Below are positions 49,796 to 55,707 of a stretch of 62,022 bases of DNA, piece after piece (within the stretch, counting starts at the first letter, position 1; each line of letters opens with the position of its first letter). A program made the translations under genes and the position numbers. The stretch spans positions 7,945 to 69,966 of the forward strand of contig CAZEDO010000002.1 of the NCBI GenBank assembly GCA_964511085.1, written 5' to 3'. The stretch is from an uncultured Lentimicrobiaceae bacterium (GTDB lineage Bacteria; Bacteroidota; Bacteroidia; Bacteroidales; DASVHX01). The notes beneath the pieces were generated by a model, which saw only the letters and a list, made by a program, of their open reading frames with translations, was not told where the DNA came from and did no database searches.

Positions 49796-50710
49796 ATGAA
49801 AAACGTACTATTTTTTGTAATCGGTCTGGTCTTTTGTTTTAAAATCCAGGCTCAAACAGTAGAGGATATTGATAACAATGTCTATAATACTGTTACTATT
49901 GGAAATCAAATCTGGATGAAAGAGAATTTAAAGACCTCCCGGTTTAACGATAACTCAAATATTACTTTAGTTACGGATAATACGACCTGGTCTGGCTTAT
50001 CAACACCTGGATACTGCTTTTATAATAACGATCCGGGTACTTATAAAGATACATATGGGGCATTGTATAATTGGTATGCTGCAAGTGCTGGTAATATATG
50101 CCCGTCGGGCTGGTTTATCCCAACAGATTCTGATTGGACTGTATTAAGTACTTTCCTTGGAACTGAATCAGTAGCAGGAGGAAAAATGAAAGAAGCTGGC
50201 CTGGATCACTGGATTAGTCCTAACAGCGGGGCCACCAATGAATCCGGCTTCACAGCACTTCCAGGTGGTTATCGTGATGTAAACAGCAGTTTCAGCAGCA
50301 ATACAAGTAATGGACGTTTCTGGTCTTCTACTGGAATTGACAATACAATTGCCTGGGGAAGAACAGTTTTTTATGATTCCTATAATCTTAGTAAATCGGT
50401 ACGTGATAAAAAATTTGGATTATCTGTGAGGTGTTTGACCAATGTTACTGACATAGATAAGATCAATTTTAACGAGAAAATAAAGATATATCCTAATCCT
50501 GCAACCGACAATCTGTTCATAAATTGCAGCAGCTTTAACTCAAATTCTGTAGTATTATCAATTTACAATTTACTCGGGGATCGGATTTTTGTCAATGAAT
50601 TGAACAGTGCCGAAAATTCAATTGATTTATCTTCTTACCCGAAAGGAATGTATCTTATAAAATTAACTTTAGAACAGGCAAATTATTCCGAAAAGATAAT
50701 TAAAGAATAG
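49796..50710 (+). CDS. FISUMP (Fibrobacter succinogenes major paralogous) domain protein with T9SS type A CTD
   Basis: DIDNNVYNTVTIGNQIWMKENL, YGALYNW, GFTALPGG.R, SVRC; CTD IYPNP...KGMYLIK...KIIKE. Confidence 0.92.
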   Translation: MKNVLFFVIGLVFCFKIQAQTVEDIDNNVYNTVTIGNQIWMKENLKTSRFNDNSNITLVTDNTTWSGLSTPGYCFYNNDPGTYKDTYGALYNWYAASAGNICPSGWFIPTDSDWTVLSTFLGTESVAGGKMKEAGLDHWISPNSGATNESGFTALPGGYRDVNSSFSSNTSNGRFWSSTGIDNTIAWGRTVFYDSYNLSKSVRDKKFGLSVRCLTNVTDIDKINFNEKIKIYPNPATDNLFINCSSFNSNSVVLSIYNLLGDRIFVNELNSAENSIDLSSYPKGMYLIKLTLEQANYSEKIIKE

Positions 50711-52776: not shown

Positions 52777-52827
52777 TGAATTATTCAGGCTATATTTGTC
52801 AGACAATTGCATCAAAATAACAAAATC

Positions 52828-54324
52828 ATGAAACAGAGGCTTTACTTCCTGCTTACAGTAAGCTACTTATCCGCCTTTTCCGGATTTTCAGCCATAGCGC
52901 GCCTGGTGGATTACCAACAAGCTAAAACGGCGGCATCCAATAAATTAATCTCCCTTCAGAAATCTGAATGGTTCAATATTAATGACCATGAAAACCGGTT
53001 TATCGATTCTGGCGGAAATTCTTTGTTTTATATTTTTGAACTGAATCCCGCCGGCTATATGGCTGTAAGCGCTGATAACGATTTACCACCAGTGATTGCC
53101 TATTCCTTTACAAATGGCGCAGGTGTTCTGGATAATGAAGCCAATACACTTATCCGTATGCTCAAAGCAGATCTGACTTTGCGCTTACATAATATTCACA
53201 ACCTGCCTCCGAATATAATTGAAGATCGGAGGAATGATTGGGAAGCTTTGCTGGCAAGTAATTCCTATAAAAAACCTTTGCAGCAATGGCCACCCGAAGG
53301 CTCCACGGCTACCGGCGGCTGGATAGAAACCAACTGGACGCAGGATGGAATTTACGATGATATGTGCCCTATGGATCCAATAACAAACCAAAGAAGTTTT
53401 GCAGGTTGCCCGGCAACTGCCATGGCGCAAATCCTGAATTATTACAAAACCACCAATGGCACTCAGTTTACTGATGAGGATGACTATTATCACCAGTATG
53501 CAGGAAGAAATTACTGGATCGACAATGATTATGCAGCAAGGGATTTTCCCTCCTTTCCTGAATTAAATGCCCATCTCGATACTGTTAATTCATGTTATGC
53601 CGGTAACGGCGTACTAAAAAACCCGGGCAAGGCAGCACTTACTTTTGCCTGTGGGGTAGCCGCCCACCAGGTTTATTCCTCCCAGGGTTCAGGCACATTT
53701 GGGGTTAGCCAGGCAGTTGACTCTTATCTGCGCTTCGGGTTTTCGGAGATTACTTTTCTTGGAAACACGAATCTCACGCTTTACGATGCCCTATCGCTGA
53801 ACATGAAGGATGCGAGGCCTGCCCATCTCGCTATTGTTGATCCGGGATGGACTACGGGCCACAACGTTGTGGTGGACGGATACAACACTGATGATTACTT
53901 TCACCTCAATTTTGGCTGGGGTGGGGCTTACAACGGTTGGTATCTCCTGCCCGACGAAATACCTTACGGACTCACCGTTATTGAAGGCCTTATCGCGGAT
54001 ATTGCATTTCCACCAACGCATACCGGCATCAGTAATTCCCTACCCGAAAACCAGGATTTGCAGTTCAGCATTTATCCCAATCCAACTACTGACAGGTTGA
54101 CTGTTGCTTTTACCGCAAACAAGGCAACAACCTTTAAGATTGATATTTATGATTTAATGGGCACGCTGCTCATTTCAATCCCCGGTAAGCAGGTTGGGGC
54201 AGGTTCAAATACTGAAACTATTGGTATTCCTGAGAAAGAAATACCAAAATTGGAAAAAGGATTGTATTTGTGCAAACTCCGTACTGATGAAAAAGTGATT
54301 ACAAGGAGTTTTATTGTTCAATAA
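52828..54324 (+). CDS. C10 family (SpeB/streptopain-like) cysteine peptidase with pro-domain and T9SS CTD
   Basis: VSAD...PVIAYS pro-domain; W.Q, AGCPATAMAQ (Cys), GHNVVVDGY (His), HLNFGWGG; IYPNP CTD. Confidence 0.92.
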   Translation: MKQRLYFLLTVSYLSAFSGFSAIARLVDYQQAKTAASNKLISLQKSEWFNINDHENRFIDSGGNSLFYIFELNPAGYMAVSADNDLPPVIAYSFTNGAGVLDNEANTLIRMLKADLTLRLHNIHNLPPNIIEDRRNDWEALLASNSYKKPLQQWPPEGSTATGGWIETNWTQDGIYDDMCPMDPITNQRSFAGCPATAMAQILNYYKTTNGTQFTDEDDYYHQYAGRNYWIDNDYAARDFPSFPELNAHLDTVNSCYAGNGVLKNPGKAALTFACGVAAHQVYSSQGSGTFGVSQAVDSYLRFGFSEITFLGNTNLTLYDALSLNMKDARPAHLAIVDPGWTTGHNVVVDGYNTDDYFHLNFGWGGAYNGWYLLPDEIPYGLTVIEGLIADIAFPPTHTGISNSLPENQDLQFSIYPNPTTDRLTVAFTANKATTFKIDIYDLMGTLLISIPGKQVGAGSNTETIGIPEKEIPKLEKGLYLCKLRTDEKVITRSFIVQ

Positions 54325-54397
54325 TAGCTTGTTATTAGTCTGTTTATAATTCACATTTCGGCACTTCGACAAACTCAGTACTTAGGGTAAAAATAGC

Positions 54398-55381
54398 CTA
54401 AATATCCTTAACGCAGCGAACAGAAAAGCCAGCCACCTCACTGATGATGTTGTAACCAAAATCACCGTCATTGTAGTCCAGGTGCCGGTACCAGGCGATA
54501 CTCGTATAGTGCTCAGAAGAACTCCACCAGAAGCCGTAGTTGCCAATGTAGTGGAATGTACCATCGTAGTAACGATAGCCACCTGGAAGGGCAGTAAAAC
54601 CGCTCACATTCGTAGCGGCTTCATTTGGGCTATACCAATGCGTTGTTCCTGTTTCTTTCAATTTGCCACCGGCTATCTCATAACCCCCTAAATTATCAGT
54701 TAAAGTATTCCATTCAACAACGGTGGCTACATGCCAGCCGGAAGGAGCTAACTTGCGGCTATCGTTTAATGCGTACCAATTGTACAACCTGCCGTAAGTA
54801 GCAATCGCATCGCTGTTGCTTGTGTTATTGTAATTGCAGTATGCACCGGTGGTCAAATTGCCCCATATCATGCCGTCTGTTACTTCGGGTATTGCAGAGC
54901 CATCGCAGTATTTGGTAGTGCGCAGGTTTTCGGCCATCCATGTTTGCAGGCCAATGGTAATAGTTTTATATACATTTCCATCAATATCAGTTACTGTTCC
55001 ATAGCTTAAGTTGGGATTAAAAATAATGACATTCCAGGATGAAACATTTACATTAATCTTCACCGTTTTACTTATGGAATTGTAGGCTGCGGCATCCGTG
55101 GGAGTAAAGACCACTTTTAAATCCTGGTTTGTACCTACATTAAGTATTGTTCCTGATGCAGGTGTGTAAATAAAGCTCCCAGGCACATTGGCAGTAGCAT
55201 TTAATTGGGTGGCGCTTAACAATGTTCCATAACCGATGTCAGCAGGATTTGCCCAGGTTATTACTGGGTCTGTTTTTGATAAGGATGGTGTTGTGTCGTC
55301 TTTCTTGCAACTGCTTGCAAGCATTAATAAAACTAACATTAGCATTAACGTGTAAATGAAAATTCTGGTTTTGTTTTTCAT
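54398..55381 (-). CDS. FISUMP-domain surface lipoprotein with Ig-like stalk; candidate DGR target
   Basis: Lipobox LASSC-KKDD; PVITWANPADI.YGT.LSATQLNA domain; WMAENL, YGRLYNW, FWWSSSE, GFSVRC at the C-terminus. Confidence 0.9.
   Translation of the reverse strand: MKNKTRIFIYTLMLMLVLLMLASSCKKDDTTPSLSKTDPVITWANPADIGYGTLLSATQLNATANVPGSFIYTPASGTILNVGTNQDLKVVFTPTDAAAYNSISKTVKINVNVSSWNVIIFNPNLSYGTVTDIDGNVYKTITIGLQTWMAENLRTTKYCDGSAIPEVTDGMIWGNLTTGAYCNYNNTSNSDAIATYGRLYNWYALNDSRKLAPSGWHVATVVEWNTLTDNLGGYEIAGGKLKETGTTHWYSPNEAATNVSGFTALPGGYRYYDGTFHYIGNYGFWWSSSEHYTSIAWYRHLDYNDGDFGYNIISEVAGFSVRCVKDI
54401..54577 (-). other. Putative DGR variable repeat (VR)
   Basis: Only 1 of 59 codons ends in A; conserved residues use A-free codons and variable positions are NNC/NNT. 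Confidence 0.65.
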
Positions 55382-55707
55382 GATAAATTGATTTGAAGGA
55401 TGATACACATTTATTTGTTCGTTGCAATTTTCGGCTGCAATTGAATGTAAACTCGTCTCCAAATGGAACAATCACACAAAATAGAATCAAATATATGAAA
55501 TAAATTCACATACCAAAAAGAGCCTAGGCATAGTCCCTGTTGCGCGAATACTGTGTCGGAGTTTTTTTTGAAATAGAGGCCACAATACTTATATAATTCA
55601 AAATATAAATTCAGCTGGCTAATAACCGACATATGTCATATGCTAAATATTACGTATTTTTGTTTATGGTATAAATATTAATCTAACTAATTTAAAAACA
55701 CACTCCT

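What the first reader, a model, noticed from the sequence alone, without database searches (positions are those of the whole stretch)
54401..54577. Orphan DGR-type variable repeat at the 3' end of a FISUMP lipoprotein, with no TR or RT in 62 kb
Seen: the last 59 codons read TAT CGT TAC TAC GAT GGT ACA TTC CAC TAC ATT GGC AAC TAC GGC TTC TGG TGG AGT TCT TCT GAG CAC TAT ... GGC TTT TCT GTT CGC TGC GTT AAG GAT ATT. Only one (ACA) ends in A in an AT-rich genome. Structural residues use adenine-free codons (CGT, GGT, GGC, TGG, TCT, GCC, CGG, CTG, GTT CGC TGC). Intervening codons are NNC/NNT, as expected if derived from AAC/AAT. The equivalent region of the paralog at 49796-50710 has many A-ending codons, which serves as an internal control. 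Established: DGRs mutate TR adenines and write them into C-terminal VRs of C-type-lectin-fold domains. Inference: this surface lipoprotein is, or recently was, diversified in trans by a DGR elsewhere in the genome, implying a dispersed multi-target system.
Basis: partly seen in the sequence, partly recalled or inferred. Interest (0 to 1): 0.8.

Follow-up and report, generated by a model that had tools for sequence, protein, structure and literature searches.

The report
Orphan hypermutation target in lipoprotein gene
The tail of this surface-lipoprotein gene carries the sequence footprint of a retroelement that rewrites genes to diversify them, but the rewriting machinery is not found and the tail does not vary between lakes, so it is most likely a stranded leftover.

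Summary
The codon anomaly is real. Only 1 of the last 59 codons ends in A, against 10.1 expected, and the last 52 codons are the longest A3-free run in any real gene of the 3.9-Mb assembly. The 183 nt at 54404-54586 (- strand) belong to the VR/TR sequence family of one DGR type. I found that type elsewhere as a cassette of FISUMP target, avd, TR and RT in Bacteroidota MAGs. Our segment aligns without gaps to 7 of 8 such TRs (2 gap columns to the eighth), with 14-30 mismatches at non-adenine sites. True VRs show 14-29 such mismatches to non-cognate TRs. Own-genome paralogs show 26-63 plus gaps.

No cognate TR, avd or family RT is in the assembly. The two DGRs that are present have unrelated TRs, each with one adjacent VR. 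The conserved hairpin flank is absent. Contigs from three other lake studies carry the same VR, with one synonymous change. A same-genus genome holds a decayed VR fragment.

Verdict: a DGR-written variable repeat, now orphaned and static. An active remote target is not excluded, because the assembly is 86% complete and a close paralog is cut at its VR. This is a new member of a known kind, of moderate interest.

The parts
54398..55381 (-). FISUMP lipoprotein gene (327 aa from the ATG at 55381; the ORF tool lists a TTG start at 55471)
   Evidence: ORF. Pfam Fib_succ_major E 2.3e-44, above cut-off. 48 full-length homologs align from the ATG-start signal peptide onward.
55307..55381 (-). Signal peptide ending in a lipobox Cys (residue 25), followed by Lys-Lys-Asp-Asp
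   Evidence: Read from the translation. Cys25 and Lys27 are nearly invariant in 48 homologs. Reading this as a Bacteroidota surface-export signal rests on recalled literature, not on a call.
55040..55279 (-). Ig/PKD-like beta-sandwich domain (residues about 35-114)
   Evidence: AlphaFold model with mean pLDDT 91.5. VIA-align matches to PKD/Ig-like domains at Z 6-7 over model residues 35-114. Weak Pfam HYDIN/VesB Ig-like hit, below cut-off.
54407..54961 (-). Fib_succ_major (FISUMP) domain with a C-type-lectin-like fold
   Evidence: Pfam residues 171-355 of the 357-aa ORF. Best structural match is 2y3c_A, Treponema denticola variable protein: Z 9.4, rmsd 3.9, 158 residues aligned. Also Lcl C-terminal domain Z 7.6, Mtd Z 6.8, TaqVP Z 6.8.
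54404..54586 (-). VR-class segment: 183 nt homologous to the TR/VR pair of FISUMP-type DGR cassettes
   Evidence: Aligns to 8 family TRs, gapless to 7 (2 gap columns to L093). Mismatches: 14-30 at 114-122 non-A TR sites and 30-35 at 61-69 A sites. It is the only G000 match to the L089 TR at E<=1e-8 (72% over 187 nt).
54401..54556 (-). Run of 52 codons with no third-position A
54410..54437 (-). 28-nt adenine-free scaffold stretch at the VR 3' end (coding strand)
   Evidence: Read. Exact-match scans gave 0 hits in metagenome contigs and viral contigs.
54325..54397 (-). 3' flank: 73-nt spacer to the convergent C10 peptidase gene. It lacks the family's direct repeats, hairpin and avd
   Evidence: The DNA fold is weaker than 197 of 200 shuffles (z +1.87). 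The flank alignment shows no homology to the conserved flank of cassette VRs. 4 of 4 adjacent cassette VRs have the hairpin.

Best explanation
The last 183 nt of this surface-lipoprotein gene are a variable repeat that was written by mutagenic retrohoming from the template repeat of a FISUMP-type diversity-generating retroelement. That event happened either in an ancestor of this gene or in a donor gene from which the segment was imported. In the intact element, a FISUMP target gene is followed by avd, a TR rich in Asn codons, and an RT. The RT copies the TR RNA and misreads adenines, and the cDNA replaces the VR, randomising the residues of the lectin-fold binding face. Here the cassette and the target-site flank (repeats plus hairpin) are gone and homology ends at the stop codon. 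The VR is therefore frozen and now evolves as an ordinary gene that encodes one fixed binding specificity. Shown: membership of the VR/TR sequence family, the adenine pattern, the absence of cassette parts from the assembly, and constancy between samples. Inferred: that retrohoming, rather than shared descent alone, produced the pattern, and that the cassette was lost rather than left unassembled.
For: (1) Family membership. Alignment to 8 family TRs is gapless for 7, with 14-30 non-A mismatches. Bona fide VRs give 0-6 to their own TR and 14-29 to non-cognate TRs. 12 own-genome paralog ends give 26-63, mostly with gaps (3 align to most TRs without gaps).
(2) Adenine content. This segment has 38 A of 183 and 2 of 61 A-ending codons. 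True VRs have 31-45 A and 3-5 A-ending codons. TRs have 57-69 A.
(3) Its single ACA codon, and the GGT before it, sit where 3 of the 8 TRs (L089, L092, L093) read GGA ACA.
(4) The A3-free run statistic also ranks a proven VR (C237) third in the genome.
(5) The canonical cassette is target, avd (Pfam bAvd 1.3e-16), TR and RT (RVT_1 3.5e-20), seen with adjacent A-only VR/TR pairs in L089, L094, L096 and L090.
(6) avd lies beside other relatives, including the closest metagenomic homolog (L015, 64% identity).
(7) No cassette is found in the assembly. blastn and an A-tolerant FFT scan find only paralogs or A-rich junk, and the same scan recovers both known TRs as controls. tblastn finds no avd and no family RT.
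(8) The hairpin flank is absent.
(9) Contigs of runs X3, X4 and X6, from three other studies, span the VR with 3, 2 and 1 differences in total. The only difference listed inside the VR is a synonymous GGC to GGT change at 54428.
(10) Decay occurs in the genus. G002 holds a VR-only fragment preceded by stops, followed by the family flank, then unrelated genes.
(11) 20 of the 47 other VR-class ends have at least 1.4 kb of downstream sequence without avd or RT. Five genomes of the order that are 97-99% complete gave 12 matches to a family TR. None has TR-level adenine content: the 9 matches of 183 nt or more carry 32-47 A against 57-69 in TRs, and 3 shorter matches (68-173 nt) carry 15-35.
Against: The assembly is 86% complete, with 265 contigs and 59 scaffold gaps, so a TR could be missing. 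Both DGRs that are present sit on contigs of 2.4-4.3 kb, which shows that such loci assemble poorly. The closest paralog on C63 (73.5% aa identity) is cut by its contig end about 20 nt into the TR-homologous region, as a hypervariable or repeated VR would cause. Logan contigs drop rare variants, so low-frequency diversification would not show. A3 depletion alone is not unique: five genes rank above this one and four of them are not DGR-linked. VR-class membership could in principle reflect descent from the gene lineage that DGRs recruited, without retrohoming into this copy.
Confidence: 0.6

Rival explanations
1. The gene is an active or occasionally active remote target. A third, FISUMP-type DGR exists in this organism but was not assembled or binned. 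Its adjacent target may be the C63 paralog, and it rewrites this VR in trans.
For: The assembly is incomplete (86%). The C63 paralog is truncated exactly at VR onset. The two known DGRs lie on tiny contigs. Remote targets are documented for some DGRs: 45 of 372 DGRs have non-adjacent targets (PMC5758913 passages). Large metagenome surveys cannot see remote targets (PMC8144416 passage). The very low A3 count (2 of 61) looks as fresh as in true VRs.
Against: No TR, avd or family RT is in 3.93 Mb. The conserved flank and hairpin, present in 4 of 4 adjacent VRs, are absent here. The same VR appears in four runs of four studies dated 2019-2025, while neutral changes accrued nearby. The same-genus genomes G001 and G002 show no family TR.
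Confidence: 0.17
2. The segment was never DGR-written. The gene is an ordinary FISUMP paralog of the subfamily from which DGR targets were recruited, and the A3-free run is codon-usage heterogeneity or chance.
For: Four non-DGR genes have equal or stronger A3-free signals, and 25 genes rank higher by z-score. The polar residues of a binding face need A-containing codons in any case, so part of the 'scaffold is A-free, loops carry A' pattern follows from the genetic code. No TR was found.
Against: 11 of 14 own paralog ends show normal A3. Depletion is strand-specific, with T3 kept. It starts where TR homology starts and ends at the stop codon. Alignment is gapless or nearly so, with non-A identity equal to that of true VRs against non-cognate TRs. 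4 of the 20 strongest A3-free runs are C-termini of lectin-fold proteins, one of them a proven VR.
Confidence: 0.15
3. The gene is a target of one of the two DGRs actually present in the assembly (C179 or C237).
For: Both are bona fide DGRs in the same bin. TR/VR agreement at non-A sites is 70 of 70 for C179 and 84 of 85 for C237.
Against: With each TR used as a mask, the best non-cognate site in the genome matches only 37 of 70 and 43 of 85 non-A positions, which is noise. blastn of the VR against C179 finds nothing.
Confidence: 0.01

Closest known systems
FISUMP-type DGR cassettes in Bacteroidota MAGs (loci L089, L094, L096, L090; TRs also in L091-L093, L095, L099, L104-L106)
   Same: The 183-nt VR/TR sequence family, VR placement at the 3' end of a Fib_succ_major domain, a lipoprotein-type N-terminus in some targets, and the adenine pattern.
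   Different: The cassettes have avd, TR and RT directly downstream and a conserved repeat-plus-hairpin flank. Their VRs match their own TR at all but 0-6 non-A sites. The window gene has none of these and carries an extra Ig-like domain.
Category 'd' / CLec2 DGR targets (DUF1566, DUF823, Fib_succ_major), exemplified by Legionella LdtA (Wu et al. 2018, PMC5758913, passages read)
   Same: A surface lipoprotein with the diversified sequence at the C-terminus of a DUF1566/FISUMP-type lectin fold. The Lcl C-terminal domain is a structural match (Z 7.6, rmsd 2.5, 101 residues).
   Different: LdtA has its DGR and is reported as diversified. Here no cognate element is found and the VR is static.
Treponema denticola TvpA and its DGR with seven non-adjacent targets (PDB 2Y3C; PMC5758913 passages)
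   Same: Best structural match of the FISUMP domain (Z 9.4), and the precedent for remote targets of one TR.
   Different: All Treponema targets match a TR present in the genome. TvpA is of the FGE-sulfatase-like CLec type. Sequence identity in the structural alignment is 15%.
Fib_succ_major DGR targets in human microbiomes (Ye 2014, PMC4159848, passages read)
   Same: Predicted lipoproteins with a C-terminal Fib_succ_major domain taken to be the diversified part. 9 such proteins are listed there.
   Different: Those were found through a TR/VR pair next to an RT. They come from gut organisms and have other N-terminal domains (Mfa2).
Ordinary FISUMP paralogs (TIGR02145 family), e.g. window 49796-50710
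   Same: The same Pfam domain and the same conserved end motif.
   Different: Normal A3 usage (14 of 55 against 11.6 expected). 48-61 non-A mismatches, and gaps in 7 of 8 alignments, against family TRs. A T9SS sorting domain instead of a lipoprotein-only architecture.

Membership tests
Fib_succ_major / FISUMP (PF09603, TIGR02145) | Match to the family HMM above the curated cut-off | tested here: met
   E 2.3e-44, 152.3 bits against a cut-off of 33.9, covering profile positions 1-187 of 187.
DGR variable-protein C-type-lectin fold | Fold likeness to solved DGR variable proteins | tested here: met
   The top hit of 48,161 chains is TvpA 2y3c_A (Z 9.4, rmsd 3.9, 158 aligned). Mtd 1yu0 scores Z 6.8 and TaqVP 5vf4 Z 6.8. 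The margin is modest: the tool notes that a typical best Z is 7-8. Foldseek alone gave nothing at E<=0.001.
VR/TR sequence family of FISUMP-type DGRs | Near-gapless alignment to family TRs, with non-adenine identity in the range of true VRs against non-cognate TRs | tested here: met
   14-30 non-A mismatches of 114-122 sites, with 0 gaps to 7 TRs and 2 gap columns to L093. True VRs give 14-29. Paralogs give 26-63.
Functional DGR target (active VR) | A cognate TR in the genome that differs from the VR almost only at TR adenines | tested here: not met
   None is present in the 3.93-Mb assembly. Controls recovered both known TRs. The assembly is 86% complete, so absence from the organism is not shown.
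Functional DGR target (active VR) | DGR reverse transcriptase, and Avd, of the matching element | tested here: not met
   Two DGR RT loci exist (C179 complete, C237 cut at its start) but have unrelated TRs. tblastn with family RT and avd queries found no avd, and for RT only the 24-29%-identical C179 and the group II intron RT on C233.
Functional DGR target (active VR) | Target-site flank (IMH region plus downstream hairpin) as in the element's own VRs | tested here: not met
   4 of 4 adjacent VRs have a G+C stem with a 3-nt loop and a T-run about 30 nt after the stop. Here the flank folds worse than shuffles and does not align. The requirement for the hairpin is recalled from work on the Bordetella phage element, not read here.
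Functional DGR target (active VR) | VR hypervariable within or between populations | tested here: not met
   Contigs from X1, X3, X4 and X6 span the VR. The only difference listed inside the VR is one synonymous change, seen in X3 and X4. These are contigs, not reads, so rare variants are untested.
Functional DGR target (active VR) | VR at the 3' end of the target ORF, with adenine-poor scaffold codons | tested here: met

The most novel reading that the evidence does not exclude
This freshwater Bacteroidales organism carries a third, unassembled FISUMP-type DGR whose adjacent target is the contig-truncated C63 paralog. That element also rewrites this lipoprotein in trans without the canonical hairpin flank. 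More broadly, the many cassette-less VR-class FISUMP genes seen in the order, including in genomes that are 97-99% complete, would then be a hidden layer of remote DGR targets that cassette-based surveys miss.
Probability: 0.12. Interest if true: 0.7.

Novelty: new member of a known kind. Interest (0 to 1): 0.45.

Why it matters
This case shows that a DGR footprint can be read from a single gene with no TR at hand, from synonymous adenine avoidance at the 3' end of a lectin-fold domain. A proven VR in the same genome scores equally high on that measure. It also points to a population of cassette-less VR-class FISUMP genes in Bacteroidota. 20 of 47 relatives examined have no avd or RT within 1.4 kb. 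Five near-complete genomes gave 12 matches to a family TR, and none of them looks like a TR. These genes are either fossils of lost DGRs or remote targets. Large surveys state that they cannot detect remote targets (PMC8144416, passage read). For the organism, the gene most likely encodes a surface adhesin or receptor whose binding face was once tuned by hypermutation and then fixed.

Tried and rejected
(1) I first inferred that the Gly-Asn-Tyr-Gly-Phe-Trp-Trp stretch is an invariant scaffold and so argues against a VR. I retracted this. The search for related loci had used that very peptide as a search pattern, so the loci were selected for it. Homologs found by DNA search vary at those positions.

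(2) Exact scans with the 28-nt adenine-free VR end found nothing: 0 hits in metagenome contigs and 0 in viral contigs. The 54428 variant seen in X3 and X4 would break that pattern, so this negative is weak.

(3) A protein scan of metagenome contigs returned no ortholog. The best hit is 64% identical.

(4) blastn of the 243-nt 3' end against 401 genomes of the order returned only paralog-level matches (66-89%), mostly over the conserved 5' part. It did surface the first family TR.

(5) The family TR 30-mer has 0 hits in viral contigs, so there is no sign that the family is phage-borne in that collection.

(6) A possible vestige of the hairpin in our flank did not survive alignment.

(7) No synteny with the same-genus genomes was found. 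Only a 105-nt match turned up in G001.

(8) A PDB search by sequence gave 0 hits. Foldseek gave nothing at E<=0.001.

(9) The listing of cluster members for the 7-member cluster of the identical protein could not be made.

Only the by-eye agreement remains between the variable consensus positions and the TR Asn positions.

(11) A literature search for orphan or remnant VRs gave 1 paper, which I saw only in the listing and which is not on point. 'Remnant' and 'inactive' in PMC5758913 refer to prophages only. I found no description of stranded VRs in those searches. Supplements were not read.

Full report
THE OBJECT. The finding lies at the 3' end of a - strand ORF, 54398..55471. The likely start is the ATG at 55381. 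That gives a 327-aa protein with a signal peptide ending in a lipobox cysteine followed by Lys-Lys-Asp-Asp. 48 full-length homologs align from that start, and the Cys is nearly invariant among them. Pfam places a Fib_succ_major (FISUMP) domain on the C-terminal 185 residues (E 2.3e-44). An AlphaFold model (mean pLDDT 91.5) shows an Ig/PKD-like sandwich (about residues 35-114) followed by a lectin-like domain (125-327). Among 48,161 PDB representatives, the best match to that second domain is the Treponema denticola DGR variable protein TvpA (Z 9.4, rmsd 3.9, 158 residues). Further matches are FGE-like folds, the Legionella Lcl C-terminal domain (Z 7.6), Mtd (Z 6.8) and TaqVP (Z 6.8). The margin over background is modest, and Foldseek alone found nothing at E<=0.001. 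The neighbours are a convergent C10 peptidase with a T9SS sorting domain, whose stop lies 73 nt away, and a divergent T9SS-sorted protein.

CHECKING THE OBSERVATION. The rest of the gene has 86 against 72.9 expected. The naive P of about 2.5e-5 overstates the case. Among 2947 crude genes this one ranks 26th for its most A3-depleted 59-codon window. Two sharper measures do better. The run of 52 codons without third-position A is the longest in any real gene of the assembly; the only longer runs are scaffold-gap Ns. On a run probability corrected for amino-acid content the gene ranks 6th, and third place goes to a sequence that turned out to be a bona fide DGR VR on contig C237. T-ending codons stay common, so the effect is strand-specific avoidance of A, not a GC shift. 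The paralog at 49796-50710 has 15 of 59 A-ending codons. Of 14 own-genome FISUMP ends, 11 show normal usage (6-14 against 9.2-12.7 expected). Only this gene (1 vs 9.7), C57 (2 vs 10.3) and partly C133 (5 vs 11.7) are depleted.

IS THERE A TR OR RT IN THE GENOME? The window is C2:7945-69966 of a 3.93-Mb assembly with 265 contigs, 86% complete. blastn at word sizes 11 and 7 finds only paralogs. An FFT scan that lets any base pair with a template A finds only the gene itself and A-rich low-complexity DNA. The same scan recovers the TRs of two real DGRs, so the method works.

The first DGR is on C179 (4348 bp). It has a 5'-cut target, a VR, a TR and a 317-aa RT with the DGR-type motif, and 70 of 70 non-A TR positions match its VR. 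The second is on C237 (2440 bp). It has a 498-aa target, a VR, a TR and the first codons of an RT at the contig end, with 84 of 85 non-A positions matching. With each TR used as a mask, the next-best site in the genome matches 37 of 70 and 43 of 85 positions, which is noise. The organism therefore has DGRs, but these two each serve one adjacent VR of a different kind and do not touch the FISUMP gene. C233 carries a group II intron RT.

THE DECISIVE LEAD. A blastn of the gene's 3' end against 401 genomes of the same order gave paralog-level hits. Screening the fetched loci with the C179 RT turned up L083 (G256:C87). There a DGR RT (414 aa) lies just downstream of a non-coding, Asn-codon-rich copy of a FISUMP 3' end, which is a TR.

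An exact 30-mer from that TR occurs in 8 species genomes of the GTDB set. All are Bacteroidota MAGs by their record titles. In these loci the canonical cassette is a FISUMP target with the VR at its 3' end, then avd (113-114 aa, Pfam bAvd E 1.3e-16), then the TR, then an RT (about 410 aa, RVT_1 E 3.5e-20). L089, L094, L096 and L090 contain adjacent VR/TR pairs with 0, 6, 1 and 0 non-adenine mismatches and 24-37 adenine mismatches. Fib_succ_major/DUF1566-type targets ('category d', CLec2, 14% of DGRs) and remote targets are already in print (PMC5758913 and PMC4159848, passages read).

WHERE THE WINDOW GENE STANDS. Its last 183 nt before the final codon (54404-54586) align to all 8 TRs, without gaps to 7 of them and with 2 gap columns to L093. 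There are 14-30 mismatches at 114-122 non-adenine sites and 30-35 at 61-69 adenine sites. True VRs against non-cognate TRs of the family give 14-29 and 23-44. Twelve own-genome paralog ends give 26-63 non-adenine mismatches, mostly with gaps. TR-to-TR identity in the family is 143-179 of 183, so the distance to an unsampled cognate TR would be ordinary. Its adenine content (38 of 183; 2 of 61 A-ending codons) lies with true VRs (31-45; 3-5) and not with TRs (57-69). It is the only sequence of its own genome that matches a family TR at E<=1e-8 (72% over 187 nt; 12 of 22 first-look candidates were scored). Its one ACA codon and the preceding GGT sit where 3 of the 8 TRs (L089, L092, L093) read GGA ACA. 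avd lies beside other relatives, including the closest metagenomic homolog (L015, 64% identity). By eye, the variable positions in the consensus of 48 full-length homologs coincide with the TR Asn positions. I conclude that the segment is a VR-class sequence of this DGR family.

IS IT BEING DIVERSIFIED NOW? Four lines say no.
- No family TR, avd or RT is in the assembly.
- In 4 of 4 adjacent cassette VRs, the stop codon is followed by short direct repeats, a G+C stem with a 3-nt loop, a T-run and the avd start. Here homology ends at the stop codon. The 73-nt flank folds worse than 197 of 200 shuffles and does not align to the family flank. No such hairpin occurs in a relevant place anywhere in the genome.
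- Contigs from four lake or freshwater metagenome runs of four studies (2019-2025; X1 may be the source) run through the VR. X3, X4 and X6 differ from the window at 3, 2 and 1 positions over 1378, 934 and 606 nt. The only difference listed inside the VR is a synonymous GGC to GGT change at 54428. The VR is therefore not evolving faster than its flanks.
- The lineage shows decay of such loci. The same-genus genome G002 holds a VR-only fragment (about 75 codons, 28 A of 183). It is preceded by stops directly after an unrelated ORF, followed by the family flank, and then by unrelated genes. G001 (95% complete) has no match.

Cassette-less VR-class ends are common. Of 60 VR/TR-class rows in my loci, 12 are TRs and 48 are VR-class including ours. 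Of the other 47, 13 have avd and/or RT in the locus, and 20 have at least 1.4 kb of downstream sequence without either. Five genomes of the order that are 97-99% complete gave 12 matches to a family TR. None has TR-level adenine content: the 9 matches of 183 nt or more carry 32-47 A against 57-69 in TRs, and 3 shorter matches (68-173 nt) carry 15-35. Two of those loci have a partial avd or RT nearby.

WHAT KEEPS THE ACTIVE READING ALIVE. The bin is incomplete, and both known DGRs sit on very short contigs. The closest paralog, on C63 (73.5% aa identity), is cut by its contig end about 20 nt into the TR-homologous region. That is what a hypervariable or repeated VR does to an assembler. Logan contigs hide rare variants. 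Some contigs in those runs carry Asn codons where this VR has His or Tyr (54553, 54568). They show that TR-like or related sequences exist in the communities, but they cannot be assigned to this organism.

VERDICT. This is a DGR-type variable repeat of a definable FISUMP-type family, but it is an orphan: no cassette, no flank and no variation. Most likely the VR was written by retrohoming and then stranded by loss of the cassette, or was moved away from it by recombination. It now encodes a fixed binding face on a surface lipoprotein (confidence 0.6). An active remote target of an unassembled element (0.17) and a never-written paralog (0.15) remain. In kind it is a new member of a known class. 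The wider point, that cassette-less VR-class genes are frequent and can be recognised from codon usage alone, gives it moderate interest.

Noticed in passing
L002 (G000:C179:1-2710), VR about 95-190, TR about 293-388, RT ORF 491-1444: A complete small DGR outside the window. It has a 5'-cut target with an adenine-poor VR, a TR matching it at 70 of 70 non-A positions, and a 317-aa RT. No second target is present in the assembly.
   Followed up: yes
G000:C237 (2440 bp), target ORF 570-2064, VR about 1948-2063, TR about 2143-2258: A second DGR. It has a 498-aa target, a VR/TR pair (84 of 85 non-A positions agree), a short hairpin just after the stop, and an RT start cut by the contig end. Its VR ranks 3rd in the genome for A3-free runs.
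   Followed up: yes
G000:C63:1-464 (- strand gene): The closest paralog (73.5% aa identity over 151 residues) is truncated by the contig end about 20 nt into the region homologous to family TRs. It may be the adjacent target of an unassembled FISUMP-type DGR.
   Followed up: partly
G000:C57:1122-1980 (-) and G000:C153:4570-6421 (-): Two further lectin-fold C-termini have long A3-free runs: a DUF1566/FISUMP-like end (41 codons; A3 2 vs 10.3 expected) and an FGE-sulfatase-like end (42 codons). The A-tolerant scan found no TR for either.
   Followed up: partly
L111 (G002:C70:567-3646), - strand: The same-genus genome holds a VR-only fragment of a FISUMP gene (about 75 codons, strongly adenine-depleted). 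It is preceded by stops and followed by the family flank up to what resembles the start of avd (compare L133), then by unrelated genes. This is a decayed DGR locus.
   Followed up: yes
L129 (G112:C8:21540-24723): A VR-class FISUMP end with an intact family-type hairpin and a partial RT about 1.3 kb downstream, yet no TR was detected between them by the A-tolerant scan or by blast with a family TR. Unexplained.
   Followed up: no
L127 (G350:C4:1-1821): A VR-class FISUMP end with an in-frame stop inside the Trp-Trp-Ser-Ser motif, in a 99%-complete genome. It is a likely pseudogenised orphan VR.
   Followed up: no
L099/L103 (G256:C237) and L088 (G256:C87): One Bacteroidales MAG carries at least two FISUMP-type TRs with RT (avd was detected only at the C237 locus), plus several VR-class genes on other contigs. 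Only one of those (C201) is close to cognate, with 6 non-A mismatches.
   Followed up: partly
window 49796-50710 (+) and 52807-54324 (+): A T9SS-sorted FISUMP paralog with ordinary codon usage, and a C10 (streptopain-like) peptidase with an I69 inhibitor-like prodomain and a T9SS sorting domain. This is a cluster of secreted or surface proteins.
   Followed up: partly
L001 (G000:C233:662-2131): A group II intron-type RT/maturase ORF (489 aa) on a 2.6-kb contig.
   Followed up: no
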